Positions 1 to 62,796 of a stretch of 64,000 bases of DNA are shown piece by piece. Each line of letters opens with the position of its first letter. Position 1 is the stretch's first letter. Where the stretch lies: positions 30,262-94,261 of the IMG/VR virus record IMGVR_UViG_3300026519_000001, one strand, 5' to 3'. The notes beneath the pieces are model-generated. The model was not told where the DNA came from, made no database searches, and worked only from the letters and a program-made list of their open reading frames with translations. A program made the translations under genes and the position numbers. Source of the DNA: a virus.

Positions 1-3000
1 TGGATTTCCCAACTCCGCTAATGTAAGAGAATCTTCTCCAAAGTTAAGAACTCCTTTATTATAATATAATTGTGTAGCAGGATTATTTAATGTGTTAGTG
101 CCATTAAATATTAAATGGTCTAATACTTCACTAACTTTAACATTCTCTCCTAAAAATGCTTTATCTATTTGAGGCAATAAATCATAAAGTTCTGATGATT
201 CACTCATTAGGCTATCTTTATAATTAACCTTCCCTGGTGTAGCAGGGCTAATTATATTAGTATATATACCAATTATTAAAGCAGTTTCATTTTTTGATAA
301 TTTTCTAAGGTTAAGTTTTATAGGTATCTTAGAACCATTAGGGGATTTAACTTCTGTAAACAAAGCCCCAGCCCAAGGAATATTAGCTTTTTTAACATTA
401 ATTACACTATTATAGTCTGTATTAATATCTTTAGTATCAGCATCATATAAATGACCTTCTTTATTAACATACATTAATTTTACATCAGAAGCTGATTCGA
501 ATCCACTTATTTCTAATACATTTTTAGAGATGCCATCTGATTTAAAAATACCTGAATATTGGTATTTAATTTTACCTTTGGGCTTCTTACCATCTCTTAA
601 AGCATCTATAATTTGACCTCTAAGTTGCCTTTCGGCTTTACCTCCTGTACCCCATTGACCATTACTTTGTTTTCTAGGTTTAAATAAATAAGTGTACATT
701 TCGGAATCGCCATTAATTACTACTTTAATAGCTAATTCATTAAGTACTTCTTCAGTTTTTTTACCTTCTTTATAAGCTCTTAATACATCGAAATTAGTTA
801 TATCTTCATCAACTACAAATTCAATAGGAATATTTGTTTTATCATTATTACTAGCCAAAAACTCCATGAATTTAGGAGACTTTGGATTATTAAAAGAAAT
901 TTTAACATCAGTTTCTGTATTTGTTTTTGAATTGGATGACTGACTATTCTTAATAATAGTTTTAGCCATTGTATCAAGACTGTCATCATTCCAATTTTGA
1001 AGATTGGTTATATCTTCATTCGTGCTTGCTGCTTCGTTAACTTCAACTTTTTTATTGGAGAATACAGGCTTAACTCCTTGTTCAATAGCATCTTCCTGAT
1101 CCTTATCAGTTATATCTCTTTTAAATTGTTCTGCTTCATTTTGTGACAATAAACCATCTCGAACTTTATTATCAAATATCCCATTTATTTGATCTTCTGG
1201 AAGCACACCCATCATGCTTTTATTAACAAAATCCTCTATTTGTTGATTTGTCATATCAACTTCTTTTGGTATATTTTGTATATCAGAAGGATTACCTATT
1301 TTCGGACCAGTATCTGGTATTTGTGCTTCTATAGGAGGCTGTGGGTTCACACCTTCATCTTTTGCTTGTTCAAATTGAGCTAATGGATTTTCATCTTGAA
1401 TAGTTGGAGTTGGTGTTACATTTGAAGGAGCTCCTGGTTTCTTCGATTTAATATTATCCTCTTTAACTTTTTTAATTATTTTATCAACTCCACCTTTTTC
1501 TTCTATTCCTTCATTATCAACTACATTATTAAGTTCAGATTCTAAAGTTTTTATTTTTATATTTAAATTATCTTTAATATGATCTCCTTTAAGTTTTGTT
1601 CTAGCAAGTCTAAGCAACTTAATTTTATCTTCTGTTAAAATAGAAGGAGACATTACATTTTCCTTAATGTACTCCATTACACTTTGATTATTTTTATTTT
1701 TAAATTGATCTGTAGCTCTATCAATTTCCATTAAGGTCTTATCAAAATCTTTTATATCAAAGTTGATGTTTTTATATTCTTGAACAATTTCAGATTCATA
1801 CATAAATTCCACAAAATGATCTGAAAGTTCTTTGTCTTTATTATTTAAATATTCATCAAATGTAAATTGAGTTTCAAAAATATTATTATAACTTGTTATT
1901 CTTTTTGATATTTCTGATAAAAGTTTTGATTGACCCTTTTCTAATATATTTTTTCCAGAATCATTAAGTTTCCTTTCTATAGAAAGTGCCATTAATTCAT
2001 CACTGGTACTATATTTTCGTAAATTTAAATATTCTTTCTCTAGTGCATCTAATTTACTAATTTGTTTATCAATATTTTTGATTACTTCTGGAGTTACTCT
2101 CTCTGCTTCTTTAAGCTCATTAATTTGTTCTCTAAGATTTTGAGTAGTACCCATTGAAAAATTCCTTACAGCAATCATTGCAAAAGAATAATCATTAGTT
2201 ATTTCATTAGCTTCATTTGCTGTTATTTCATTTACATCTTCTAAACTTTCCTCTGTTAATTTTTTAAATATACTTTTATATAGTGTTTGGTCTATATAAT
2301 CTTTATTTTTAACAAATTCCTGTTGTTGCGAAGTAAAATGCTCCATTCGAGACTTGTTAATCTTTTTCTGAAAAGGAGCTTGTGTAATAGCATATTGCAC
2401 TGGTCCACCAAACATTCCCATAGCACCTTCTAAAAGTGCTTGCTCTGACATGGCAAATTCAGTAAACCTTTCACTTAAAGTCATATCTTCTAATCTCTTA
2501 TCAGATGTAACGTATCCTTTTGAAGCTAGGGATTTTCTAGTTTGAAATATACCCTCCATTTGAATTACATTTTGACCAATTTCTTCAAATGCTTCTTTAG
2601 GGGCATTAAGTGCTTGAGATTTAGCAAAAGCTCCGAAACTAGGCTTTTTTACTAATTTATTAGTTATACCTAAACCAGTAGCTTTAAACATACTATTTAA
2701 CTGCATATAATCAGTTCCAATGAATAGTTTATTTCTAAGCATAAAAGCATTAGCTTGTTTTCCAGCATTTACCTTAGCTTGAAATTCAAATTCTTTTAAC
2801 TCTTCTGCAGAAGGAGTATCAGTTTCATTAAGTCCTAATTCAAAATCAGCTTTGTATTTATCTAAATATAATTGATAATTCTCTTTTGTTGCCTTTTCAT
2901 ATAACTCCAAACCCATCATCTTACCCTCACCAAAATTAGTGATATAAGCAGTAGTTAATCTGCCTGCAACTCCACTTTCTAATCCCTTAGCAGTAGCATT

Positions 3001-3642
3001 TACAGCTCTACCTATCATATTAGTATAAGCTCCAAGTCTACTTAATCTTAAGGCACTACCCACAGCTTTAACAGCAGCACCAGCTCCCATTCCAGTTAAG
3101 CCAAATCCAGTTGCACTATCAACTACACCTCTAAATGATTCCCAATAGAAAGCACTATCATTAAAATCAATTATTTTACTTGGATCTTTTCTATAAATAG
3201 GTAGATATTCATTAAGTAATTTCTCTTTTGATTCTTTGAAAAAAGTTGCTGCTGCACTAGATTCCATTACATTAAGATTGTCATCTTTAGAAAAGTAAGT
3301 TGAAGCTGTTTTAATATTTTCAGGAATATCTAATATATTGCTTATTGTTTCACCTGCTGTTAGTAATCCACTAGCAAGACCACCAAGTATTGCATTGGAA
3401 GCTTGATGTAACCAAGGTTGCCTTTCGGATCTGATTTTAGCTAAATTATCCACTAATGCTAATGGCACTCCCACATCGAATTGGGAATCACCAATACCTG
3501 TGATACCTACATTAAATCTCCCTCCTATTTTAGACTTATCATAGTTTCTTCTTATAGGTGACATCTGTGGAATTACAGGTCCATTACCATTTACTGGATT
3601 AGAACTCCTAATAGGAGATATTTTTTTTATTGGCGCTCCCAT
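1..3642 (-). CDS. Giant virion-packaged (cargo / virion RNA polymerase block) protein, N-terminal ~1214 aa, runs off the window
   Basis: ATG at 3642 (MGAPIKKISPIRSSNPV...RSERQPWLHQASNAILGGLASG). The same frame is open at both ends that I read. Position downstream of muzzle and cargo genes matches the Crassvirales giant-protein block. No catalytic motif identified in the part read. Confidence 0.7.
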   Translation of the reverse strand, partial: MGAPIKKISPIRSSNPVNGNGPVIPQMSPIRRNYDKSKIGGRFNVGITGIGDSQFDVGVPLALVDNLAKIRSERQPWLHQASNAILGGLASGLLTAGETISNILDIPENIKTASTYFSKDDNLNVMESSAAATFFKESKEKLLNEYLPIYRKDPSKIIDFNDSAFYWESFRGVVDSATGFGLTGMGAGAAVKAVGSALRLSRLGAYTNMIGRAVNATAKGLESGVAGRLTTAYITNFGEGKMMGLELYEKATKENYQLYLDKYKADFELGLNETDTPSAEELKEFEFQAKVNAGKQANAFMLRNKLFIGTDYMQLNSMFKATGLGITNKLVKKPSFGAFAKSQALNAPKEAFEEIGQNVIQMEGIFQTRKSLASKGYVTSDKRLEDMTLSERFTEFAMSEQALLEGAMGMFGGPVQYAITQAPFQKKINKSRMEHFTSQQQEFVKNKDYIDQTLYKSIFKKLTEESLEDVNEITANEANEITNDYSFAMIAVRNFSMGTTQNLREQINELKEAERVTPEVIKNIDKQISKLDALEKEYLNLRKYSTSDELMALSIERKLNDSGKNILEKGQSKLLSEISKRITSYNNIFETQFTFDEYLNNKDKELSDHFVEFMYESEIVQEYKNINFDIKDFDKTLMEIDRATDQFKNKNNQSVMEYIKENVMSPSILTEDKIKLLRLARTKLKGDHIKDNLNIKIKTLESELNNVVDNEGIEEKGGVDKIIKKVKEDNIKSKKPGAPSNVTPTPTIQDENPLAQFEQAKDEGVNPQPPIEAQIPDTGPKIGNPSDIQNIPKEVDMTNQQIEDFVNKSMMGVLPEDQINGIFDNKVRDGLLSQNEAEQFKRDITDKDQEDAIEQGVKPVFSNKKVEVNEAASTNEDITNLQNWNDDSLDTMAKTIIKNSQSSNSKTNTETDVKISFNNPKSPKFMEFLASNNDKTNIPIEFVVDEDITNFDVLRAYKEGKKTEEVLNELAIKVVINGDSEMYTYLFKPRKQSNGQWGTGGKAERQLRGQIIDALRDGKKPKGKIKYQYSGIFKSDGISKNVLEISGFESASDVKLMYVNKEGHLYDADTKDINTDYNSVINVKKANIPWAGALFTEVKSPNGSKIPIKLNLRKLSKNETALIIGIYTNIISPATPGKVNYKDSLMSESSELYDLLPQIDKAFLGENVKVSEVLDHLIFNGTNTLNNPATQLYYNKGVLNFGEDSLTLAELGNP

Positions 3643-5688: not shown

Positions 5689-6888
5689 TTATTTATTTTT
5701 TCTAACCCCTTTTAATATATCGGATGTTAATTTTAATTCTTTACTAAAATCCCTTAGATTAACCTCTTTATCTTCTTTAGCCTGCTGTTCAAGTATTGCA
5801 ATTGCTTCTTCTTCACTAACCCCTGAAAGTTCCATCATTGTAGAGATAGACTTTGATTTTTGCTCAGGAGTTCCATTTTTATAATTGCCTAGTATGTCAT
5901 ATCCATATAACTTAGATATTCTAGCATTATCAAATATTGTTTTACCTATTGTTCCTAGATTATTACCTATACTAGATTGTAAATCAGCCCTAGCAGATTC
6001 AAATGCAGCAAGATTAGCAGCATCTGCATCATCAGCTCTTGTATTAATTTGAGAGTTAATTCTAGCTTTGTTCAAGTCTAATCTAGCTATTGAAGTATTT
6101 TTGCGTAAATTTAATGCATCTCCCCTAGCTTTTTCGGAAGCATTTAATTGAGCAGTTTTTCTATCTTCTACTTGTGCCGCCATTCGAGCTTGCCCTATTG
6201 ATGAAGCTAAATTAGCTGAATTAGCCAATTGATTAGCAACAAATGAACCTGCATTACCTCTGGAAGCATTTATATTATTCTGAGCAAATCTAGCAGAAGA
6301 TTCTATCATTCCTCTTTCAATATTATTAATATCTATATTTTTAAAATTAGTTTCCCTAGGTTTAAACTTTGATAAAGCTCCTGTTATATCTGCATTAATA
6401 GTACGCCTTGGAGTTGGGGCAGCTCGTTCTAATTGTCCTAATTGTAATCCATCTATAAGTAATGGCGCAGCCTGTAAGCCTAAGCCTAAAATACCACCAC
6501 CATTACCAAACATATTACCACCATCAGCAAATTTTTCATTGTAAGTAGAAGAAGCTGCTCTATTAAAAGTATCTTGCTGTTCAGTAGGTTGGAATCCTAC
6601 ACCTTCATTTCCTGCAGTTGGTGGGGCAGCTTGAAAATTATCTTGTTGCTGTGGAATATCACTTTGGAATTGTTGTTGCTGCTTTTCTTGAACTTGCTGT
6701 CTAGTAGCTTCTAAGTTAGTTTGTATCTCATTTTTTTGTTTAATATACTCCTGAGCCTCTTCTAGTGATTTCATTTCACTATTAAGTGCCCTAATAGATA
6801 TAGGATCAAATCTATCTTTATATGTTTTATTTATTTCTTCTGCTATTTTAGCAAAAGACATTCCTTTATATTTTTCTTGTAATGCCAT
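5689..6888 (-). CDS. Cargo protein 1-like, C-terminal part (399 aa)
   Basis: SFAKIAEEI...DPISIRAL..EM..L...QE and FADGG motifs recalled from crAss cargo protein C1; Ala/Asn/Gln-rich helical tail. Confidence 0.55.
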   Translation of the reverse strand: MALQEKYKGMSFAKIAEEINKTYKDRFDPISIRALNSEMKSLEEAQEYIKQKNEIQTNLEATRQQVQEKQQQQFQSDIPQQQDNFQAAPPTAGNEGVGFQPTEQQDTFNRAASSTYNEKFADGGNMFGNGGGILGLGLQAAPLLIDGLQLGQLERAAPTPRRTINADITGALSKFKPRETNFKNIDINNIERGMIESSARFAQNNINASRGNAGSFVANQLANSANLASSIGQARMAAQVEDRKTAQLNASEKARGDALNLRKNTSIARLDLNKARINSQINTRADDADAANLAAFESARADLQSSIGNNLGTIGKTIFDNARISKLYGYDILGNYKNGTPEQKSKSISTMMELSGVSEEEAIAILEQQAKEDKEVNLRDFSKELKLTSDILKGVRKNK

Positions 6889-7662: not shown

Positions 7663-10600
7663 TTAATTTATTGTATATGAGAAGGTGATGTCATAAAGAG
7701 TAAATTTATAATCCTCTTCTGAGTGATTAAATTCTAATTCTATTAAAGCCCATGGTGCTCTAATTCTATTTCTAGTACTTTCTTCTCTAGGTAATGTTAT
7801 ATTAAATTCCCTAAATTTCCTTCTAACATTACTTCCATATATTAATTCTTTATTCCCAGATGTTTGATAAGAAGTATCAACTTTTATATTGTTAAATGTA
7901 ATATTAAATTTATCTACGTTATCAGAAATTAATTTAGTATCAGTAATATAATTTATGTTGTCTATTATTTTATCACTAGAAGGCTTGTCATTCATTAATA
8001 ATTTAATCTTAGAAGAATAATATACATCATAAAAAGTATTATAAAATCCTTTATCATGCTCCCATATATCATCAGTAAATTGACCATGATTTGCAGTAAA
8101 CATTTTACTATTGATATTAAAATAAATATAGGGTTTAAAATCATAAAAAGAAGTAAAGCCATCTGCTATTAAATTGTAGGATACTGTGAATGAATCATCA
8201 TCAGTTAAGAAGCTAAAATAAATATCTTTAAATCTATTATCATAATAAGATACTACATTATTAAAATTTAATGTAGAAACCCCTTCTACACCTTTAAGTA
8301 AGTTATTGTAATTATTATTTGTATACTCTTTTGTATAATTATACAACCCCTTAGTTAAACTAATTTCTTCGTTTTGACTAGCGATTCTATTAATACTATT
8401 ATTAAGTATGTCAAAATAAAAAACACCAGATTCAACAGAAGTTATACTTTTTGGATGTAACGTTCCTGAATTTGTAGAAATATAATCATATCTTTGCAGC
8501 AACTCTCCTGAGCCTAATAAAATTGGAACATTATCACTTGTGGATAATTGCACCCTAGGATTAATAGAAAGATAAGAAACAGCACTTCTTTGAAATGCAA
8601 ACATTACATTTCTAAGTTTAACTAATCCAGTAATTTCTCCATGCTCTGTTTCAAGAGTTATTTTATCATTAACAGAAATACTAGTCCAATTATCAATTTG
8701 TTCTCCTAAAAGTTTAATAGGACTAGCAATTATTTCATCACTAAAAACATTTTGCGAAGTAAAATTAAAAGGCTTACTAATAGCTTTGTTTATGATATTT
8801 TGTTGTTCATATACAGAATTATAGCCATAGGCATTATTTTCATCTAAAGCCTCACCTGTATTTTTAGATTCTAATATATCATACCTCATGTTAGAATTAA
8901 CAGAAGATTCACATACAAAATCAACAATTTCACTTATAGTAGCTTCAACTTCAGAAGACCCAGCATTATTTTCAAAAATTCTTAATAATGGAGATTCCTG
9001 AATAAATGTATCACCAAATTTTCCATTAATATTTGAAACACTAACTAGTTCTAATTCTGAATAAGGAACATAAACATTTCTTTGCCTATCCGCATAAGTG
9101 TTTCCACCATATTGTGGTATATCATCATTATAAAATTCAACTATTAAAGCATAATCATCATCAGGAGTGCTTACATCTTCCCATAAGGCTAAAGAGTTAT
9201 CCCATAAATCTTCTGATGTAAAAAATAATTGAGAACCACTATAATAAGTAAATTTAGTTTCAAAATCCATATCTACTAATGGAGTGTATATTACAGTAGT
9301 GTCAATTAAAATTTGAGGGTCTGCATCAAAATCTTCTCCTTCTTTAGTTTGAACAGACACATCGGCTTCAATAGGAGGTATAAAAGCAACTGTTTTATCC
9401 GTAGACAAATTACTTACTTCAAATCCATTTCTGCTACTATGTAACAAAACACTGCCGAATTTTCTTTTGTAAAATACTTTTTTAAATTCATATCTATTTA
9501 ACCTAACAGAATCAGAAGCCCTTTCGAAATCATTTCTTATATCTCCCAATAAGAAATATCCGCCACCACCTTCATTTTTAAACCATCTATCAACATTAGC
9601 ATCAGAATCATTTTGAACAGGGTCGTCTACAGTATATTGAAATACCTCTGCATTTTTTGCATCTAATTCGTAAGATTTTCTCAACTCTACTGGCTCATCC
9701 TTATTATTAGAAGCAGAACTATATGCCGTATAAAAATCAGCTTTAGAATACGAATTTGTATTTTTTTGAAACCCAACTACTCTTATTTTATAATCATCTC
9801 CAACAGCTAATTTAGATTGATTAAATATAAACTCTGGACTTATAATATTAAAATGTATTTTACTTGCGTAAGCATTACCTATATACGTGCCAGCACTATC
9901 TATTTCAGGAATTATATCTCCCCTATCAGGATATATAGTCCCAGCTGCAGAGTTTCTATTGAATGCTTGTGGTTTTTGAAATTTTTCTCCCCTATATGTA
10001 TCTGGATATGAAGCTCCAGTAGGACCATCCAATATAGGATTTATTGGATTTGTTGTATTTGGATCAACTCTAAATGTTCTAGTTAAAGGTATACTATATA
10101 ATTTTTCTAAATTAGACCCTACAGGAAAAATTGCTATATCCTTATAATCATTTTGTTGAAAAACACATGGATTAACTAAGCCTTGTCCTTTAACAGTTTT
10201 ATCATATTCCTTTCTTTCAACAATAACTAATCTATAGCTAACTGCCTCTGCTGGCATATTATTAACCTTAACTTCAATATAAGCAAGTTCTGCTTCATTT
10301 GAAGAATTAATAAGATTAAGATATTCTTTTTCATTAGCAGCTGGTATTTTTAGATCAGCTATCCATTTAGCAAATGACTCTTCTCCATTATTATTTTTAA
10401 AAACCAATGCAACTCTATACCTCTCACCTCTTTTTAAAGAGGTATCAGAATTTGATTCAAATATCGTATTTAAACTTTTTTGTTTATATCTAACCCAATA
10501 TTCTACATTTGGACCAATACCACCTATTGCATTCCTAGCTACATCATCAGGTAAATATTGCACTTCTCCAAGTCTATAAACAGCAGATGGATCATCTATA

Positions 10601-45291: not shown

Positions 45292-45822
45292 CTTATCGGT
45301 CTTTTCGCAATTGCAATAATAACATCTCTCACAATATATACTACCATAGAACATTGTATTAATGTTGCAAGTATATAAGATAAAGACTTTATAGTATACA
45401 TTATTATATTATATATATGTGTATCCATCGTTTTTATATGCAATATAATCAAATAATTGCCAAAAACAAATTTTACTGGCGTATTTTTGAAACATTAATA
45501 ATAATTATAAATAATTGCCTTTAATACATACCAATATAAAATTTTTGCTATTTTTTTAAAAACTTTTTGTAAGCAAAGTGTAATTAGTTATTCTAAAATT
45601 GCCACCCCCCCCAACCCCCCACATTCATATAATATGTTTATTTTACTTTATTCTATTTAAAAAAAATTACTGCGTGTAAGGTAGGGTGTAGGAACTATAT
45701 AAACACCCCCACCCCTTTCCAAAATTGGGATATACCCCCTCTTGTTAATCAATCAGTTTATTCCAAATAATATTGCAATATTCAATCTAAGATCAAGCAG
45801 TTTATACAAAGCTTATGAATAA

Positions 45823-49721: not shown

Positions 49722-49782
49722 TTTTTCATAATGTAATAAAAGAAACTTTCTTTTATTAATTTTAAAATTATTCTTTCTTTTA

Positions 49783-49814
49783 TTTTAACATTTTAACATT
49801 TTAACATTTTAACA
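49783..49814 (+). repeat. Tandem repeat (TTTTAACA)x4
   Basis: Exact 8-mer tandem ending 8 nt before the HD gene ATG. Confidence 0.8.
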
Positions 49815-49822
49815 TTGAAATT

Positions 49823-50329
49823 ATGAACATTGTAGAAAAATCTAAAAAATATGCATGTGAATCCCATGCCAATACTAATCATTATTATGATTTTGATAAG
49901 CCATATAGTACACATTTAAATATGGTATATAATATAGCTAAACACTTTATATCGTTAGTTAATGATGAAGACCAAGATAATGTATTGGCAGCTTGTTGGA
50001 CACACGATATTATTGAAGATGCAAGACAAACATATGATGATGTTTTAAAAAATACTAATAAAACAATAGCTGATATTACTTATGCTCTTACTAATGAAAA
50101 AGGTAAGAATAGAAAAGAAAGAGCTAATAATAAATATTTTGAAGGCATTAGAAATATACCAAATTCTTCTTTTGTTAAATTGTGTGATAGAATAGCTAAT
50201 GTTACTTATTCTAAAAAAAATAAATCACCAATGTTTATTAAATATAAAAAAGAAAATAGTATATTTGTAAAGTCTATAGATCAATTTGGATTAAAACCAA
50301 TGATACAATATTTAGATGACATTAGTTAA
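49823..50329 (+). CDS. HD-domain small alarmone hydrolase-like protein (RelA/SpoT hydrolase / Mesh1 family)
   Basis: A...H, PY..HL, AA..HDIIED, ALT and VKL.DRI.N motifs in the correct order. Confidence 0.8.
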   Translation: MNIVEKSKKYACESHANTNHYYDFDKPYSTHLNMVYNIAKHFISLVNDEDQDNVLAACWTHDIIEDARQTYDDVLKNTNKTIADITYALTNEKGKNRKERANNKYFEGIRNIPNSSFVKLCDRIANVTYSKKNKSPMFIKYKKENSIFVKSIDQFGLKPMIQYLDDIS

Positions 50330-50336
50330 TAAATAT

Positions 50337-50686
50337 GGGGCTGACTGATATTGACAGGATGATATTGATAATATATGCAAGCACGTGATGATATGAGACA
50401 CGTATGAAACGTATCAACTTAATAATTAACAAGAATGAAAATTCTGCTGAAGACATACAAGGTATGGAATCAGCTTTAGCTGAAGCTAAAGTAATCTTAA
50501 TGACTCCTGTAAAGGAAGAAAGAATGCTAATTGCAGCTTAATCGTTTAATTGTATTTGATAAAGGTTTATTAATTCCTTAAAAATTAAATAATGCGAATA
50601 TATAATTAGTAATAATTATTAAAAGCTTGTAATATCATATATTATTTATACATAGCTGGACCAGAGTTTGATTCTCTGCAGCTCCA
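50337..50686 (+). ncRNA. ssrA: tmRNA
   Basis: 5' GGGGCTGA; 3' T arm CAGAG-TTTGATT-CTCTG; acceptor CAGCTCC-A with G3:U70; pk1 (ACGTG/CACGT, TGATATG/CGTATCA); tag ORF 50428-50541 ending LIAA-stop. Confidence 0.88.
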
Positions 50687-50770
50687 CTTAACCAAATATG
50701 GTACTCAGTCTGTAAAAGGGTAGCTGAGTTACTATATTTGAATTTTATATTTAAATTAAACAAAAGTAAA

Positions 50771-51639: not shown

Positions 51640-51782
51640 ATTTCTTTAATTATTTTCAATTGTTTAAATATAGTTAGATTTTTAACACAATTGAATATAA
51701 TGATAAATTTTATCCTAATGGTTTGTAACGGCTATTGTATGAAGCGGCACGATTTTACCGCACGAATTTTAAACAATAACTA

Positions 51783-52232
51783 ATGACTGAAAACAAAACA
51801 ATACTTCGATTAAAAGACAATGTAAGTGCTGATTTATATACATTGTTAACTACTGGGCGGATTTTATTTATGACGCTTAATAGAAAATGGTACACCAAAA
51901 TTGCGTGTGGAGAAAAGAAGGAAGAATATAGAATCATTAAGCCTTATTGGATTAGACGATTTATAAACTGGATGAGCGAACCAAACTGGGGAATGAACGA
52001 CTTTGTGAGAGAATTTGAATATCACGGCAATGAATTAGGCTTTATTGAAAAGCACGGAAAAGAATTTGACTTAATTGTATTTGTTAATGGATACGGAAAT
52101 GCACCAACTACAATAGTAGAGCATAAAGGGCTTGAAATAAAGACTGGTAGAGAAGATTGGGGAGCGGTGGCAGAGCAATTTTATTTAACTATTAAACTTG
52201 GCAAAGTGCTATACACCGAGCCTTGTAGTTAA
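51783..52232 (+). CDS. ASCH-domain-like protein (cassette gene)
   Basis: L..KWY..I..GEKKEEYR.IKPYW..R and F.NGY motifs; stop codon lies inside TAAC. Confidence 0.7.
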   Translation: MTENKTILRLKDNVSADLYTLLTTGRILFMTLNRKWYTKIACGEKKEEYRIIKPYWIRRFINWMSEPNWGMNDFVREFEYHGNELGFIEKHGKEFDLIVFVNGYGNAPTTIVEHKGLEIKTGREDWGAVAEQFYLTIKLGKVLYTEPCS

Positions 52233-52385
52233 CGGTTTGTATATGATTTTGTAGGCATAGACAAGCACGAACTTTGGATTAGATACCTACTTAAATAGAA
52301 AGAATTAAACATTGAATTATTAACCAACTGCCTATAAATTATATACTTTGTTATATATCTGGGCGGTTTTAAAAACAAAAAGATT

Positions 52386-52676
52386 ATGACTAAAGAAGAA
52401 TTTAAAAACAAGTACTTAAAAAACGCTTTCTTTTGGATAAATGAAGAGAACCATATTAAAATACAAGAAGTGATGCAAGAGTTTGGCATTCGATGTGTTA
52501 CTGGAAGTGGATTTATAAACTGGCACGAAGGATTTAAAAACTTATGTACTTTCCCGCCAAACGGTTTTACAGGACACGAATTTTACCAAAAAGTAGATGT
52601 GTGGACACCAAACGCAAGATATGGAGAACCTAAAAATATTGAGCGTTTTTTTGTTGATTATAAAGCACTAACGTAG
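52386..52676 (+). CDS. Hypothetical cassette protein
   Basis: Fills the space between GTT 52350 and AAC 52687-52689. Confidence 0.6.
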   Translation: MTKEEFKNKYLKNAFFWINEENHIKIQEVMQEFGIRCVTGSGFINWHEGFKNLCTFPPNGFTGHEFYQKVDVWTPNARYGEPKNIERFFVDYKALT

Positions 52677-52944
52677 CCTTGTATATAACTTTAAAGAGTA
52701 TGATTTGTAGCGGTTAAATAACTAAAAATAATATTTAAAATGAAAACAATAATAGATAATTTAAATGAATTAAAGGAACTAAATATTTAAAGTGTGGAAA
52801 AAAATATATTGTAACCAAAGATTGCCTAGGTTATTTTATAAATGTAAGAAACGATAATGAAGTGATACAAGCTACAAACTCATCCTTTTTTAAAAAATAA
52901 TTACTTACAACTGAATAGTATAACAAATTTTAAATTTAAACATT

Positions 52945-53169
52945 ATGACAGGAGAAGAATATAGTAAAAAGTACGATTTAGCTATCAATTTTAAAATAAT
53001 GGCTAAAGAAGCATTTAATGAAGGATTAAAACAAGGTCGTTCAGAAAATGAAACCAAACGTTTTAACAAACTTAAAAGGGAAGTAATAAAATTAAGGGAA
53101 GAAAATAAATGGATGAATGGTGTACTTAACGATCCTGAAAAGTTAGCGGATTGGATTGGTGGAATTTAA
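52945..53169 (+). CDS. Hypothetical protein inside an attC-like hairpin loop
   Basis: Flanked by GTATAACAAA and TTTGTTATAC arms. Confidence 0.6.
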   Translation: MTGEEYSKKYDLAINFKIMAKEAFNEGLKQGRSENETKRFNKLKREVIKLREENKWMNGVLNDPEKLADWIGGI

Positions 53170-53361
53170 TTTTTGTTATACATAGTTAATAGCTTTTTTA
53201 GGTAAGTTTACGCAGAATAAAATTAACACAAAAATAAGTGAACAGAATACAAAAAGTATCGCAAGAATTACGTAATATGCTAAAATTGCATACTAACGTA
53301 GCGGTTATGGCTTGTGCGGTTAAGAAGTTGAATTTTAAAATAACAATTAAATAATATTGAA

Positions 53362-53763
53362 ATGGAAGCAAAAAATTTAAGAATTGGAAATTATTACTAT
53401 CAAGATGGTTTTTATAGAATTGAAAGAAATAAACCAAGAATATATATACCAACTAGGAATTTTATATTAAATAAAGAAACTTTAATTTGGCTACTTACAG
53501 AAGGCGAATTAGATTATATTAAGCCTATAAAATTAACAGAAGAATGGTTAATAAATTTTGGATTAATTGAAACACATTATGGCGAATATATTTTAACTAA
53601 TAATTATTGGGGTATCTATTTTTATTATGATAAAGATGAAGAATATTGGTTTGTAAATGCTAATAATGAATATGCAATATGCAAATTTAAATACGTACAC
53701 GAATTACAAAATTTATTTTTTGCTTTAACTGGAAACGAACTAGAATTTAAGCATAAGTTATAA
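53362..53763 (+). CDS. YopX-like phage protein, inside a hairpin loop
   Basis: LRIGN, IKPIKLTEEWL..FG and KYVHELQNLFFALTG.EL motifs. Confidence 0.65.
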   Translation: MEAKNLRIGNYYYQDGFYRIERNKPRIYIPTRNFILNKETLIWLLTEGELDYIKPIKLTEEWLINFGLIETHYGEYILTNNYWGIYFYYDKDEEYWFVNANNEYAICKFKYVHELQNLFFALTGNELEFKHKL

Positions 53764-53914
53764 CCTTAGTTGGTATTTGTTTTGGAACTGGTAAAAGCAC
53801 TTAGCAAATAAACGCCAAAATAAGAAATTATTGGCAAACTTTTGTAGATACATAAAAACAACCAATATAAACTGCAACGGAATACAGCTATGAAGCGTTG
53901 CCGACTAAAACATT

Positions 53915-54250
53915 ATGCAAGTAGGAGAAAAATTTGATTTTAAAAAATTGTCAATTAGAAATGTAGATGCAAATTATATCCTAAAAATATTACGTTCTAA
54001 TATGTCAATATTCTGGTCGTGGGGTGCACGTGCATTCGTTGACCTTAATGGCAAAGGTTTACGACTTACAGTTAGTGGACACCATCACAAAGGTCATTTG
54101 TACATTGTTCTAAATGGTGCAGACTTATTTGACATATACTACTGCTCTAATCGTGGCACTATCAAAGATGTACATACCGATATATTCTTTGACCAATTGG
54201 TTGAGGTTATTGACAACAAAATTGAACGTATAGCAGACTATACGTATTAA
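53915..54250 (+). CDS. Hypothetical phage protein
   Basis: GL...V.G..HKG..YI.LN..DLFDI...DIFFDQLV..ID..IE. Confidence 0.6.
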   Translation: MQVGEKFDFKKLSIRNVDANYILKILRSNMSIFWSWGARAFVDLNGKGLRLTVSGHHHKGHLYIVLNGADLFDIYYCSNRGTIKDVHTDIFFDQLVEVIDNKIERIADYTY

Positions 54251-54283
54251 GATAAGCGAGTCCGTCAAATCTGAACGGAAACT

Positions 54284-54313
54284 AGGTAAGGGGGTTAAAT
54301 TCCCTTACCTTTT
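54284..54313 (+). terminator. Intrinsic terminator
   Basis: AGGTAAGGG...CCCTTACCT followed by TTT. Confidence 0.65.
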
Positions 54314-54564
54314 AATTTCCCTAAGTATTAGGATATTAAGATAGAACAATGTACATTTGTTAAACACTAAAGCAAAAGAAGCTAAAGAGTTTGTGAAAAT
54401 AGAATACGAACAGTACCAATATGACACCTTAGTAACTAAGGACAGTAATGGCAAGGAAGAATCTACAAGTATTAACTATAAAGAAATGGTTAATTGGATT
54501 ATACGCACTAAACCTAATGGTGCGTAACGCCTATTGTATGGTGCGTTATAAAGCTAAAATTGAT

Positions 54565-54828
54565 ATGAAAACACAACCTAAAAGTACAAGAGAAAAAGTA
54601 ACTATGGAAGAAGTAAATAAGGCACTATACAAATTGTTAGGTGCTGTTGGTTCTTCTGTTGAATTTACTTACAAAGGGGACAAAAAGGTAAAAGGAATAC
54701 TTCTTGTACCTATTGAGGAAGGTATTTTGCTTGAAATGCAATCGGACTACATAGCTAATGAAGAATGGTTTGCAGGTGAAAAGAAGTATTTCGAGAATAG
54801 GACGGTGTATAATTACAATTGCACCTAA
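54565..54828 (+). CDS. Hypothetical chimeric cassette protein (start refined to MKTQPKST)
   Basis: Starts in a hairpin loop, reads through the right arm (ALYKLLGAV), and stops in TAAT of the next degenerate site. Confidence 0.55.
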   Translation: MKTQPKSTREKVTMEEVNKALYKLLGAVGSSVEFTYKGDKKVKGILLVPIEEGILLEMQSDYIANEEWFAGEKKYFENRTVYNYNCT

Positions 54829-62140: not shown

Positions 62141-62518
62141 ATGAAAAAAGTAAAAGTTGATGAATTAACAATTGATGGAACTGTTTACATTCCAAAATGT
62201 TCTGTTTTTGAAAAAGCAGAGTTAAAAAATGGTATGCCATTTGTAATGGTAAGAACAGAAAGTGCTGGTGTTCATTGTGGATATATGAAAAGCAGAAATG
62301 AATCAGAAGTAGTTTTATTAGAATCTATTAGAATTTGGAGTTGGTCAGGTGCTGCTTCATTATCTCAGTTAGCAATGGAGGGAACAAAAAATCCAGAAAC
62401 TTGCAAATTTGCAATGCCAATAAAAACAAGTTTGATTTTATTAAATTCTATTGAAATAATTGAAATAACAGAAGAAGCTAAAATTTCAATCCAAAATGTA
62501 AAATCATGGAAAAAATAA
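62141..62518 (+). CDS. DUF6948-like phage protein
   Basis: VMVRT.SAGVH.G and RIW.W.GAASLSQLA.EG motifs; usually paired with a Gly-rich ORF. Confidence 0.65.
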   Translation: MKKVKVDELTIDGTVYIPKCSVFEKAELKNGMPFVMVRTESAGVHCGYMKSRNESEVVLLESIRIWSWSGAASLSQLAMEGTKNPETCKFAMPIKTSLILLNSIEIIEITEEAKISIQNVKSWKK

Positions 62519-62772
62519 ATTCTGGCTCTGGCTCTGGTACTGGTAATGGTGATGGTAATGGTGATGGTGATGGTTCTGGTTATGGTGATGGTTCTGGTTA
62601 TGGTTCTGGTTCTGGTTATGGTGATGGTACTGGTTATGGTGATGGTTCTGGTTATGGTTCTGGTTATGGTTCTGGTAATGGTTCTGGTAATGGTGATGGT
62701 AATGGTGATGGTTCTGGTTCTGGTTATGGTGATGGTACTGGTTCTGGTTCTGGTTATGACAGAATATATTAA
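62506..62772 (+). CDS. Gly-rich low-complexity repeat protein (G-x)n
   Basis: GSGYGDG repeats built from hexamers GGT+TCT/TAT/GAT/AAT/ACT. Confidence 0.65.
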   Translation: MEKINSGSGSGTGNGDGNGDGDGSGYGDGSGYGSGSGYGDGTGYGDGSGYGSGYGSGNGSGNGDGNGDGSGSGYGDGTGSGSGYDRIY

Positions 62773-62796
62773 CAAAATAATAACTTTAAAAAAAAC

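What the first reader, a model, noticed from the sequence alone, without database searches (positions are those of the whole stretch)
52908..53771. Whole genes sit inside the loops of the attC-like hairpins (two-tier cassettes)
The 74-aa ORF (52945-53169) lies between CAAC-tgaata-GTATAACAAATTTTAAATT and AATTTAATTTTTGTTATAC-ata-GTT. The 133-aa ORF (53362-53763) lies between TAAC-gtagc-GGTTATGGCTTGTGC and GCATAAGTTATAACC-tta-GTT. The conventional cassette slots beside them (53188-53293, 53772-53874) are short and gene-free. Classical attC sites have short non-coding variable terminal structures, so this suggests two alternating module types (AAC-to-GTT loop modules and GTT-to-AAC cassette modules), each able to carry a gene.
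Basis: partly seen in the sequence, partly recalled or inferred. Interest (0 to 1): 0.8.

Follow-up and report, generated by a model that had tools for sequence, protein, structure and literature searches.

The report
Genes inside phage cassette hairpins
In this marine crAss-like phage, two small genes each sit between the two pairing arms of an integron-like DNA recombination site instead of beside it. This layout recurs in other flavobacterial phages and I could not find it described for integrons.

Summary
The 74-aa ORF (52945-53169) and the 133-aa ORF (53362-53763) are each bracketed by AAC-spacer-arm ... arm-spacer-GTT pairs (52909-53187 and 53295-53771). The neighbouring slots (53188-53294, 53772-53875) are non-coding.

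- **Not chance.** None of 163 ORFs outside the arrays has such a bracket. The arms fit the local site family, including spacers of 5-6/3 nt and G:T wobbles at +12/+17.
- **Recurrent.** Eight more gene-holding long-loop sites occur in six other viral contigs, and one in an Olleya chromosome.
- **Partner-specific.** Arms match their own partners (13.7 of 15) but not other sites' arms (-2.6).
- **Recombinase.** In a Patiriisocius chromosome the same sites form an array headed by a Xer-like tyrosine recombinase. The phage has none.

The "two-tier" reading is only partly supported. A duplicated cassette in a Maribacter contig, and the pattern of flank conservation, put the unit boundary at AAC. One cassette is therefore a site plus the arc that follows it, with the gene in either compartment. 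Arcs after long-loop sites are short (p=0.005). Distant homologues of the 133-aa gene lack arms, and one sits in a conventional slot. Recombination itself is untested.

This scan has already noted genes inside such loops in several other phage genomes.

The parts
51727..51847 (+). Short site S1 (121 nt), AAC...GTT
   Evidence: arms TGTATGAAGCGGCAC / GTGCTGATTTATATA
51870..52232 (+). Gene A in a conventional arc. The real start is probably the ATG at 51870. The stop codon overlaps the next AAC.
   Evidence: phrog_625 aligns from residue 27 of the 149-aa ORF. Cassette ends aactac / gtagtt are complementary.
52231..52352 (+). Short site S2 (122 nt). With its 30-nt leader it is duplicated at genome 5321-5477.
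   Evidence: Also 88% identical to L058 5357-5514.
52386..52676 (+). Gene B (96 aa) in a conventional arc
   Evidence: Arc ends atata...tatat|AAC(52687) are complementary.
52687..52890 (+). Degenerate long-loop site S3. It has an AAC and arms 52693-52711 / 52871-52890, but no GTT core. The loop holds only broken short ORFs. A 17-18-nt arc follows.
   Evidence: pairing score 15; sequence
52909..53187 (+). Long-loop site C (279 nt): AAC, 6-nt spacer, 20-nt arms, 3-nt spacer, GTT
   Evidence: The stem appears in the MFE and centroid folds of both strands.
52945..53169 (+). Gene C, 74 aa, predicted coiled-coil phage protein of unknown function, inside the loop. It starts 7 nt after the left arm and its stop lies in the right arm.
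   Evidence: (one homologue, 78% identical)
53188..53294 (.). Non-coding arc (107 nt) that follows site C. I read it as the rest of cassette C.
   Evidence: Stops in all + frames (sequence). Arcs after long-loop sites are short.
53295..53771 (+). Long-loop site D (477 nt): AAC, 5-nt spacer, 15-nt arms with G:T at family positions, 3-nt spacer, GTT
   Evidence: The stem forms on the + strand only.
53362..53763 (+). Gene D, 133 aa, phrog_10066 (function unknown), inside the loop. It starts 44 nt after the left arm and its stop lies in the right arm.
53772..53875 (.). Non-coding arc (104 nt) that follows site D. It contains a stem GGTATTTGTTTT / AAAACAACC that ends at a possible decayed core, AAT 53864-53866.
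   Evidence: Sequence; inference
53876..53901 (+). Left half-site only (AAC-ggaat-ACAGCTATGAAGCGTTGC). No convincing right arm was found.
   Evidence: best partner scores 9.5 and has no GTT
53915..54250 (+). Gene E (111 aa), after the half-site
54285..54313 (+). Terminator-like hairpin GGTAAGGG...CCCTTACC followed by TTTT
   Evidence: Sequence
54526..54638 (+). Short site S7 (113 nt), lying inside ORF 54448-54828

Best explanation
Window 52909-53875 holds two consecutive cassettes of an integron-like gene-cassette system typical of Flavobacteriaceae and their phages. Each cassette runs from one AAC to the next. It consists of a folded site (AAC, unpaired spacer, L arm ... L arm, spacer, GTT) followed by an arc whose two ends pair with each other.

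A cassette therefore has two compartments: the loop between the L arms and the arc after GTT. Cassettes A and B carry their gene in the arc and have a 121-122-nt site. Cassettes C and D (and the decayed S3) carry the gene in the loop and have only a 104-107-nt non-coding arc.

Inferred mechanism:
- When the + strand is single-stranded, the arms pair and rebuild the recombinase-binding stem.
- A host Xer-like tyrosine recombinase exchanges strands at the AAC. The phage encodes no such enzyme.
- Whatever lies in either compartment moves with the site.

Shown here: the anatomy, the family membership of the arms, covariation, recurrence, the AAC-to-AAC unit, and the link to a recombinase in a host chromosome. 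Inferred: single-strand folding in vivo, the exact cleavage point, and whether sites with 220-760-nt loops still recombine.
For: 1. Family membership. The arms of C, and especially D, fit the consensus of about 15 short sites in this genome. They share the spacer asymmetry of 5-6/3 nt and the G:T wobbles at +12/+17.
2. Specificity. 0 of 163 non-array ORFs are bracketed. Control cores give about 0.2 long pairs against 7.
3. Recurrence. Long-loop sites that enclose + strand ORFs occur at L046 4373-4645, L088 517-880, L104 3926-4731, L109 13395-13677, L058 3450-3826, 5889-6495 and 6553-6850, L035 1561-2273, this genome 2961-3316 and 5697-6028, and Olleya L171 4530-5246.
4. Partner-specific covariation. 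True arm pairs score a mean 13.7 of 15 and non-partners -2.6. Only 1.3% of non-partners reach the lowest true score. Each stem position shows several pair types.
5. Unit boundary. The duplicated L230 cassette is identical for 1089 nt from AAC to the next AAC. Similar sites share the flank after GTT (10/10 in 7 of 13 pairs) but not the flank before AAC. The copy of S2 in this phage starts exactly at AAC.
6. Arc lengths. Arcs following long-loop sites are short (23, 23, 32, 57, 101, 107 ...; Mann-Whitney p=0.005 against arcs after short sites). Arcs preceding them are not (p=0.45).
7. Recombinase. In Patiriisocius (L243) four same-strand sites end 270 nt from a 382-aa tyrosine recombinase gene.
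8. Strand. The D stem folds on the + strand only.
Against: - No recombination event, excised circle or presence/absence polymorphism was seen. The only run that holds this DNA shows no joints.
- The phage array is partly decayed. S3 lacks GTT, the last site has no right arm, and the end-pairing of the two short arcs is weak.
- Site C is AT-rich, lacks the conserved G:T wobbles and folds equally on both strands.
- Long loops should lower the folding probability, and stems of long-loop sites are only slightly longer (19.5 against 18.3 bp).
- Similar sites flank different genes, with homology ending at the start codon. Genes may therefore also be exchanged by another route.
- The AAC boundary rests on one duplicated bacterial cassette plus flank statistics, not on biochemistry.
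Confidence: 0.6

Rival explanations
1. The arms act in RNA, not DNA. In the mRNA they pair across the whole ORF to form a long-range stem that brackets each gene. The stem could be a processing site (RNase III type) or a device for stability or translation control.
For: - In the phage and in 16 of 19 viral contigs the genes lie on the same strand as the G:T (G:U-compatible) wobbles.
- The arms hug the ORFs. The left arm ends 7-71 nt before the ATG, and the stop codon lies in or near the right arm.
- The D stem forms only on the sense strand.
Against: - In bacterial arrays of the same site family the genes are on the opposite strand, so their mRNAs would carry C:A mismatches.
- The invariant AAC/GTT triplets, the fixed unpaired spacers, the cassette-specific end pairing and the adjacent recombinase are not explained by an RNA stem.
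- No transcript data are available.
Confidence: 0.12
2. Each AAC-to-GTT module is itself a mobile element: a hairpin-ended (terminal inverted repeat) unit that carries a passenger gene, independent of the neighbouring slot.
For: - The arms bracket the ORFs tightly.
- The same gene family occurs with arms, in a conventional slot and with no site at all.
- The two long-loop modules at genome 2961 and 5697 share leader and trailer sequence around unrelated ORFs.
Against: - The duplicated unit in L230 runs AAC to AAC, not AAC to GTT.
- The flank after GTT travels with the site.
- Each long-loop site has unique arms, so no multi-copy element is seen.
- There are no target-site duplications at 52903-52908 / 53188-53193 or 53289-53294 / 53772-53777.
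Confidence: 0.1
3. The brackets are relics with no present function. A gene was inserted into the loop of an ordinary short site, for example by short-homology recombination at the recurring TTAATTATG-type start motif, and the array is now inert in a phage that has no recombinase.
For: - Long-loop sites at genome 2961, genome 5697 and L058 3450 keep loop motifs of short sites (GCACGAAACTTTGAATTAAAC upstream, TTAAGCAC downstream). They also carry a repeated TAATTATG motif on both sides of the ORF.
- This array is decayed.
- The phage has no PF00589 recombinase.
Against: - Arms stay complementary, with compensatory changes, across 13 independent long-loop sites.
- The arcs that follow are systematically short. 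That suggests a maintained design rather than random insertions.
- This rival concerns origin and is compatible with the main explanation.
Confidence: 0.15
4. The inverted repeats are chance matches in AT-rich DNA.
For: The genome is 22-32% G+C, and many imperfect inverted repeats exist.
Against: - 0 of 163 control ORFs are bracketed.
- Control cores give far fewer long pairs.
- The arms fit the site family.
- Non-partner arms do not pair.
Confidence: 0.02

Closest known systems
Integron attC sites and gene cassettes (IntI, attI, attC), especially sedentary chromosomal integrons with long homogeneous attC sites
   Same: - Imperfect hairpin site with conserved AAC...GTT triplets, unpaired spacers, and an inner (L) and outer (R) stem.
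- One strand folds better than the other.
- Cassette-specific outer pairing.
- Same-orientation arrays.
- In host chromosomes the layout is gene then site, with the folded strand antisense to the genes.
   Different: - Natural attC sites are 57-141 bp with a terminal structure of 3-100 nt (PMC5371416, PMC7439510). Here the sites span 279 and 477 nt and hold a whole gene.
- The recombinase beside the host arrays scores below the integron-integrase cut-off (205 against 265).
- In phages the gene is on the folded strand.
CALINs (clusters of attC sites lacking an integrase) in virulent phages, including Polaribacter phage P12002L (PMC9892861)
   Same: Integrase-less rows of attC-type sites with small genes in phage genomes, including a phage of Flavobacteriaceae.
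   Different: That paper describes genes between sites. I found no mention of genes within attC. Whether its sites belong to this family was not tested.
rAID-1 recombinase-associated arrays of Bacteroidales (Ross et al., bioRxiv 10.1101/471110)
   Same: A XerD-family tyrosine recombinase heads an array of small genes separated by repetitive intergenic sequences "reminiscent of integrons". This matches the Patiriisocius array.
   Different: - rAID-1 cargo is immunity genes in gut Bacteroidales. No folded-site anatomy or gene-in-loop layout is described.
- Here the cargo is phage genes of unknown function in a marine phage without a recombinase.
Synthetic attC sites embedded in coding sequence (Nivina et al. 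2020, PMC7439510)
   Same: It shows that site structure and protein coding can share the same DNA. Here the right arms encode the last codons and the stop codon.
   Different: That work places a short site inside a gene. Here a gene lies inside a site.

Membership tests
Classical integron (IntI / attI / attC) | Integron integrase (IntI with its specific extra domain) next to the array | tested here: not met
   The complete phage genome has no PF00589 match. The recombinase beside a host array scores 205, below the 265 cut-off of TIGR02249. Its best match is the XerA-type model NF040815 (227.9 against a cut-off of 220).
Classical integron (IntI / attI / attC) | attC architecture: AAC box, unpaired spacer, inner stem, loop, inner stem, spacer, GTT box | tested here: met
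   Sites C and D have 6/3 and 5/3 spacers and 20- and 15-bp stems.
Classical integron (IntI / attI / attC) | Site length 57-141 bp with a non-coding terminal structure of 3-100 nt | tested here: not met
   The sites span 279 and 477 nt with loops of 224 and 433 nt that are filled by ORFs. The known ranges come from PMC5371416 and PMC7439510.
Classical integron (IntI / attI / attC) | Only one strand folds into the recombinogenic form, and it is antisense to the cassette gene | tested here: not met
   Strand bias holds for D but not for C. In the phage the folding strand is the coding strand. In host arrays it is antisense, as in integrons.
Classical integron (IntI / attI / attC) | Cassette boundary at the conserved triplet (AA|C on the folded strand) | tested here: met
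   This is comparative evidence only. The L230 duplicate runs from AAC to AAC, and flank conservation is asymmetric. No cleavage assay was done.
Classical integron (IntI / attI / attC) | Demonstrated site-specific recombination of the site | not testable with these tools
   No joints appear in the one run that holds this DNA.
Xer-like recombinase cassette arrays of Bacteroidota (rAID-1-like) | Array of same-orientation repeated sites headed by a Xer-family tyrosine recombinase | tested here: met
   This is met in the Patiriisocius chromosome, where the last site at L243 9024-9151 is followed by the recombinase ORF at 9421-10569. The phage array itself has no recombinase.
Xer-like recombinase cassette arrays of Bacteroidota (rAID-1-like) | Cargo of interbacterial immunity genes | tested here: inconclusive
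   Genes C and D have no Pfam family. D is phrog_10066, of unknown function.
CALIN (attC cluster without integrase) | Two or more attC-type sites close together with no integrase in the replicon | tested here: met
   There are at least 5 sites in 51727-54638 and no recombinase. Detection by IntegronFinder or HattCI was not run.
MITE / foldback element with passenger gene | Terminal inverted repeats plus target-site duplication, and several copies with the same ends | tested here: not met
   Inverted ends are present, but the flanks show no duplication and every long-loop site has its own arm sequence.

The most novel reading that the evidence does not exclude
The loop is where new genes enter this system. 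On this reading an "empty" folded site acquires a gene between its arms, perhaps by short-homology exchange at the recurring TTAATTATG start motif. That would give a natural snapshot of how gene cassettes are born.

Phages would also keep their own pool of cassettes whose genes lie on the folding strand, opposite to host cassettes. Phage and host would then share the recombination machinery but not the expression logic.
Probability: 0.2. Interest if true: 0.8.

Novelty: new variant of a known kind. Interest (0 to 1): 0.6.

Why it matters
Integron-type sites are thought to need a short non-coding loop, and how a gene first becomes joined to such a site is an old open question.

A recurrent natural layout with whole genes between the pairing arms has three consequences:
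- Either these sites tolerate loops of hundreds of bases, or phages keep the hairpins for another purpose.
- It gives concrete substrates (native loop, deleted loop, mutated arms) for a recombination assay.
- It suggests that cassettes have two cargo positions.

It also documents a route by which virulent flavobacterial phages may trade small accessory genes, although they lack a recombinase of their own.

Tried and rejected
The DNA around the only close homologue of gene C (P0117, 78% identical, a 2,244-bp JGI contig) could not be read.
- **No DNA for gene C relatives.** A metagenome-contig scan with the C/P0117 alignment found no relative, and a viral-contig scan with P0001 found none.
- **No cultured-phage match to the site.** blastn of the S2 site against cultured phages gave no match, and the 5-kb region matched only a gene fragment in Cellulophaga phage phi19:1.
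- **Sequencing runs.** One DNA run holds the stretch (hydrothermal vent metagenome, probably the source). No RNA holder is listed.
- **Laid contigs.** They show no joints or variants. Contigs break at the repeated S2 site and at 53254-53283.
- **Whole-module folds.** Their energies are not better than shuffles (z -0.2 to -0.8), because the coding interior dominates.
- **Last half-site.** No right arm was found for the half-site at 53876.
- **Promoters.** Motifs in the two non-coding arcs were looked for only by eye (TAnnTTTG-like), with no consistent result.
- **Rfam.** At gathering thresholds it reports only the six tRNAs.
- **Chance explanation.** Rejected.
- **Not used.** Structure prediction and complex prediction, because they would not bear on the finding.

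Full report
**Setting.** The window is bases 30262-94261 of a complete 94,261-bp virus record with direct terminal repeats. It is AT-rich (22-38% G+C), carries six tRNA genes, and has a run of small + strand ORFs from about 45 kb onwards. Earlier notes of this scan call it a marine crAss-like phage. I did not test that label.

**The observation.**
- Site C reads AAC 52909-52911, spacer tgaata, left arm 52918-52937, right arm 53162-53181, spacer ata, GTT 53185-53187. It has 20 stem positions with two T:T mismatches.
- Site D reads AAC 53295-53297, spacer gtagc, left arm 53303-53317, right arm 53751-53765, spacer tta, GTT 53769-53771. It has 15 stem positions, and the three non-Watson-Crick pairs are all G:T.
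- The 74-aa ORF (52945-53169) starts 7 nt after its left arm. The 133-aa ORF (53362-53763) starts 44 nt after its left arm. Both stop codons lie inside the right arms.
- The slots 53188-53294 and 53772-53875 have stops in every + frame.

**Chance is excluded.**
- My scan for AAC-spacer(3-7)-stem ... stem-spacer(2-4)-GTT finds a family of about 15 short sites (85-125 nt). They lie in two clusters, genome 2.9-9.6 kb and window 51.7-54.7 kb.
- Their consensus is AAC-G(G/A)TTT-GTATATG..GTAGCC ... GGCTAT..ATATAC-nTT-GTT.
- Site D fits this consensus, including G:T wobbles at +12 and +17 from the AAC. Site C fits less well, sharing GTATA..., the spacers and the cores.
- Unrelated control triplets (AAG/CTT, GAA/TTC, AGA/TCT, ATC/GAT, TAC/GTA) give about 0.2 long pairs of score >=13 in the 10 kb of arrays, against 7 for AAC/GTT.
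- Of 163 ORFs of 40-500 aa outside the arrays, none is tightly bracketed at score >=13 (best 9.5). Genes C and D score 14.5 and 13.5.

**Map of the array.**

| Element | Coordinates | Note |
|---|---|---|
| S1 | 51727-51847 | short site |
| Gene A | probably from ATG 51870 to 52232 | phrog_625 aligns from residue 27 |
| S2 | 52231-52352 | short site |
| Gene B | 52386-52676 | conventional arc |
| S3 | 52687-52890 | arms present, no GTT, only broken ORFs in the loop |
| Arc | 17-18 nt | |
| Site C | 52909-53187 | holds gene C |
| Arc | 53188-53294 | 107 nt, non-coding |
| Site D | 53295-53771 | holds gene D |
| Arc | 53772-53875 | 104 nt, non-coding |
| Left half-site | from 53876 | no right arm found |
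| Gene E | 53915-54250 | |
| Terminator-like hairpin | 54285-54313 | |
| S7 | 54526-54638 | inside ORF 54448-54828 |

The arcs that hold genes A and B have complementary ends next to the cores (GTT|aactac ... gtagtt|AAC and GTT|atata ... tatat|AAC). This corresponds to the cassette-specific outer stem of integron cassettes.

**The layout recurs.**
- A 15-nt left-arm pattern pulled about 27 viral contigs with real sites out of IMG/VR.
- Eight more long-loop sites in six of those contigs have strong, family-typical arms and + strand ORFs that fill the loop. They are L046 4373-4645, L088 517-880, L104 3926-4731 (two ORFs), L109 13395-13677, L058 3450-3826, 5889-6495 and 6553-6850, and L035 1561-2273.
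- This phage's first array has two more, at 2961-3316 and 5697-6028.
- An Olleya chromosome has one with a 173-aa ORF.
- Over 13 long-loop sites, true arm partners score a mean 13.7 of 15. Arms of different sites score -2.6 (sd 6.9), and 1.3% reach the lowest true value.
- Every stem position shows several pair types, and G:T is concentrated at two positions.
- The arms are therefore site-specific and co-vary across 220-760 nt.

**What the mobile unit is.** Three observations put the boundary at AAC, not GTT.
- In a Maribacter contig (L230) one cassette is duplicated. The copies are identical for 1089 nt, from the AAC of one site to four bases past the next AAC, and unrelated before it.
- In 13 pairs of similar sites, the 10 nt after GTT are identical in 7 pairs and similarity runs on for 10-25 nt. 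The 10 nt before AAC match poorly.
- The second copy of S2 in this genome (5321-5477) starts exactly at AAC and ends near the next start codon.

A unit is thus one site plus the arc that follows it. In line with this, arcs that follow long-loop sites are short (23, 23, 32, 57, 101, 107, 189 ... nt; Mann-Whitney p=0.005 against arcs after short sites). Arcs that precede them are not short (p=0.45). So "loop module plus short slot" is one cassette whose gene lies in the loop, not two cassette tiers. In this window each intact unit has one gene in one compartment. L104 and Olleya L171 are exceptions, with genes in both compartments.

**Link to a recombinase.**
- The phage has no tyrosine recombinase.
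- The same site family forms arrays in Tenacibaculum, Polaribacter, Patiriisocius, Olleya, Maribacter and other Flavobacteriaceae.
- In the complete Patiriisocius chromosome the array ends 270 nt from a 382-aa tyrosine recombinase gene.
- That protein has PF00589 plus an N-terminal SAM-like domain. It passes the XerA-type model (227.9 against 220) and stays below the integron-integrase cut-off (205 against 265).
- This independently confirms, in one genome, what earlier notes of this scan reported.
- In bacterial arrays the genes lie on the strand opposite to the G:T wobbles. On the coding strand that gives gene then site, with the boundary at the 3' GTT, exactly as in integrons.
- In the phage and in 16 of 19 viral contigs the genes lie on the wobble strand.

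**The genes.**
- Gene D is phrog_10066, of unknown function, with 115 homologues at up to 42% identity.
- Homologues of D in five viral contigs, in Olleya phage Harreka_1 (Harreka1_48) and in Cellulophaga phage phi19:3 (gp061) sit in tightly packed operons with no bracket (best score <=3).
- One homologue of D in L104 (3544-3927) occupies a conventional GTT-to-AAC arc.
- Gene C has one homologue (78% identical), whose DNA I could not reach.
- The protein atlas gives only phage hypothetical proteins for both genes.
- The arms therefore do not belong to the gene family, and the same family can occupy either compartment.

**Folding.** As single-stranded DNA, the D stem, with its outer TACTAAC/GTTGGTA pairing, is in the MFE and centroid structure of the + strand and absent on the - strand. 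The C stem forms on both strands. Whole-module energies are no better than shuffles, as expected when most of the sequence is coding.

**Explanation and rivals.**
- Best explanation (confidence 0.6): these are integron-like cassettes with two cargo compartments. C and D carry their gene in the loop, and a host Xer-like enzyme acting on the folded + strand at the AAC would move them.
- RNA rival (0.12): the arms form a long-range mRNA stem. It fits the phage strand bias, but it does not fit the bacterial arrays, the invariant cores or the recombinase link.
- Independent AAC-to-GTT element (0.10): the AAC-to-AAC duplicate and the flank asymmetry contradict it.
- Relics of a gene inserted into an ordinary loop (0.15): this may explain the origin. 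Long-loop sites at genome 2961, genome 5697 and L058 3450 keep short-site loop motifs and a repeated TAATTATG on both sides of unrelated ORFs. It does not explain the maintained covariation or the short arcs that follow.
- Chance (0.02): excluded.

**Comparison with what is known.** Natural attC sites are 57-141 bp with terminal structures of 3-100 nt (PMC5371416, PMC7439510). Integrase-less attC clusters have been reported in virulent phages, including a Polaribacter phage (PMC9892861). Recombinase-headed arrays with integron-like intergenic repeats are known in Bacteroidales as rAID-1 (10.1101/471110). None of the papers I searched or read describes whole genes inside the site loop. This scan has already noted the same layout in several other phage genomes. 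My results agree with those notes. Points I did not see in the short summaries shown to me are the AAC-to-AAC unit, the short following arcs, and the opposite gene orientation in phage and host arrays.

**Limits.** No recombination, excised circle or polymorphism was observed. This array is partly decayed.

Noticed in passing
Viral loci L007-L118 against bacterial loci L139, L158, L159, L171, L219, L230, L240, L243: Relative to the site's folding (G:T wobble) strand, cassette genes are antisense in bacterial arrays but sense in this phage and in 16 of 19 viral contigs. Phage and host cassettes therefore have opposite gene polarity.
   Followed up: partly
L230:96-1185 and L230:4067-5156 (uncultured Maribacter contig): A whole cassette (186-nt site plus a 287-aa gene on the opposite strand) is duplicated within one array. 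The copies are identical for 1089 nt, from AAC to the next AAC.
   Followed up: yes
window 52231-52389 and genome 5321-5477; also L058 5357-5514: The S2 site and its roughly 30-nt leader are conserved (82-88%) in front of unrelated genes, with homology ending at the start codon. This suggests that ORFs are also swapped behind a fixed leader.
   Followed up: partly
genome 2961-3339 and 5697-6051; L058 6553-6873: Three long-loop sites with different arms and genes are each followed by the same 23-nt mini-arc, GTAAAATCGTTTTAATGTTTTAC. It consists of little more than a 6-bp end stem.
   Followed up: no
L027 3070-3256, L035 401-584, L107 835-1034, L117 5383-5577; window 54448-54828: In sites of about 185-200 nt, and at S7, ORFs start in or before the loop and read through the right arm and the GTT into the next arc. 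Some proteins are therefore encoded across the junction.
   Followed up: no
window 50640-50700: A stretch (GGACCAGAGTTTGATTCTCTGCAGCTCCAC) resembles a tRNA T-arm and acceptor 3' end. ARAGORN and Rfam call nothing here.
   Followed up: no
window 49782-49813: There are four tandem copies of ATTTTAAC directly upstream of the ORF at 49823.
   Followed up: no
window 45590-45730: Unusual C-rich runs (CCACCCCCCCCAACCCCCC, CACCCCCACCCC) lie in an otherwise AT-rich non-coding stretch just after the tRNA cluster.
   Followed up: no
window 62487-62794: A long tandem array with an 18-nt and then a 12-nt period lies inside coding sequence (family D1).
   Followed up: no
L158 2062-2252 and 4212-4404; L219 5809-5998; L230 96-281, 2048-2233, 3055-3244: Bacterial arrays have a distinct class of 186-193-nt sites. 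Their non-coding loops share conserved sequence (GGCGGTCTTTGTAAATATGC...TTTAGCAC), which may be a regulatory insert.
   Followed up: no
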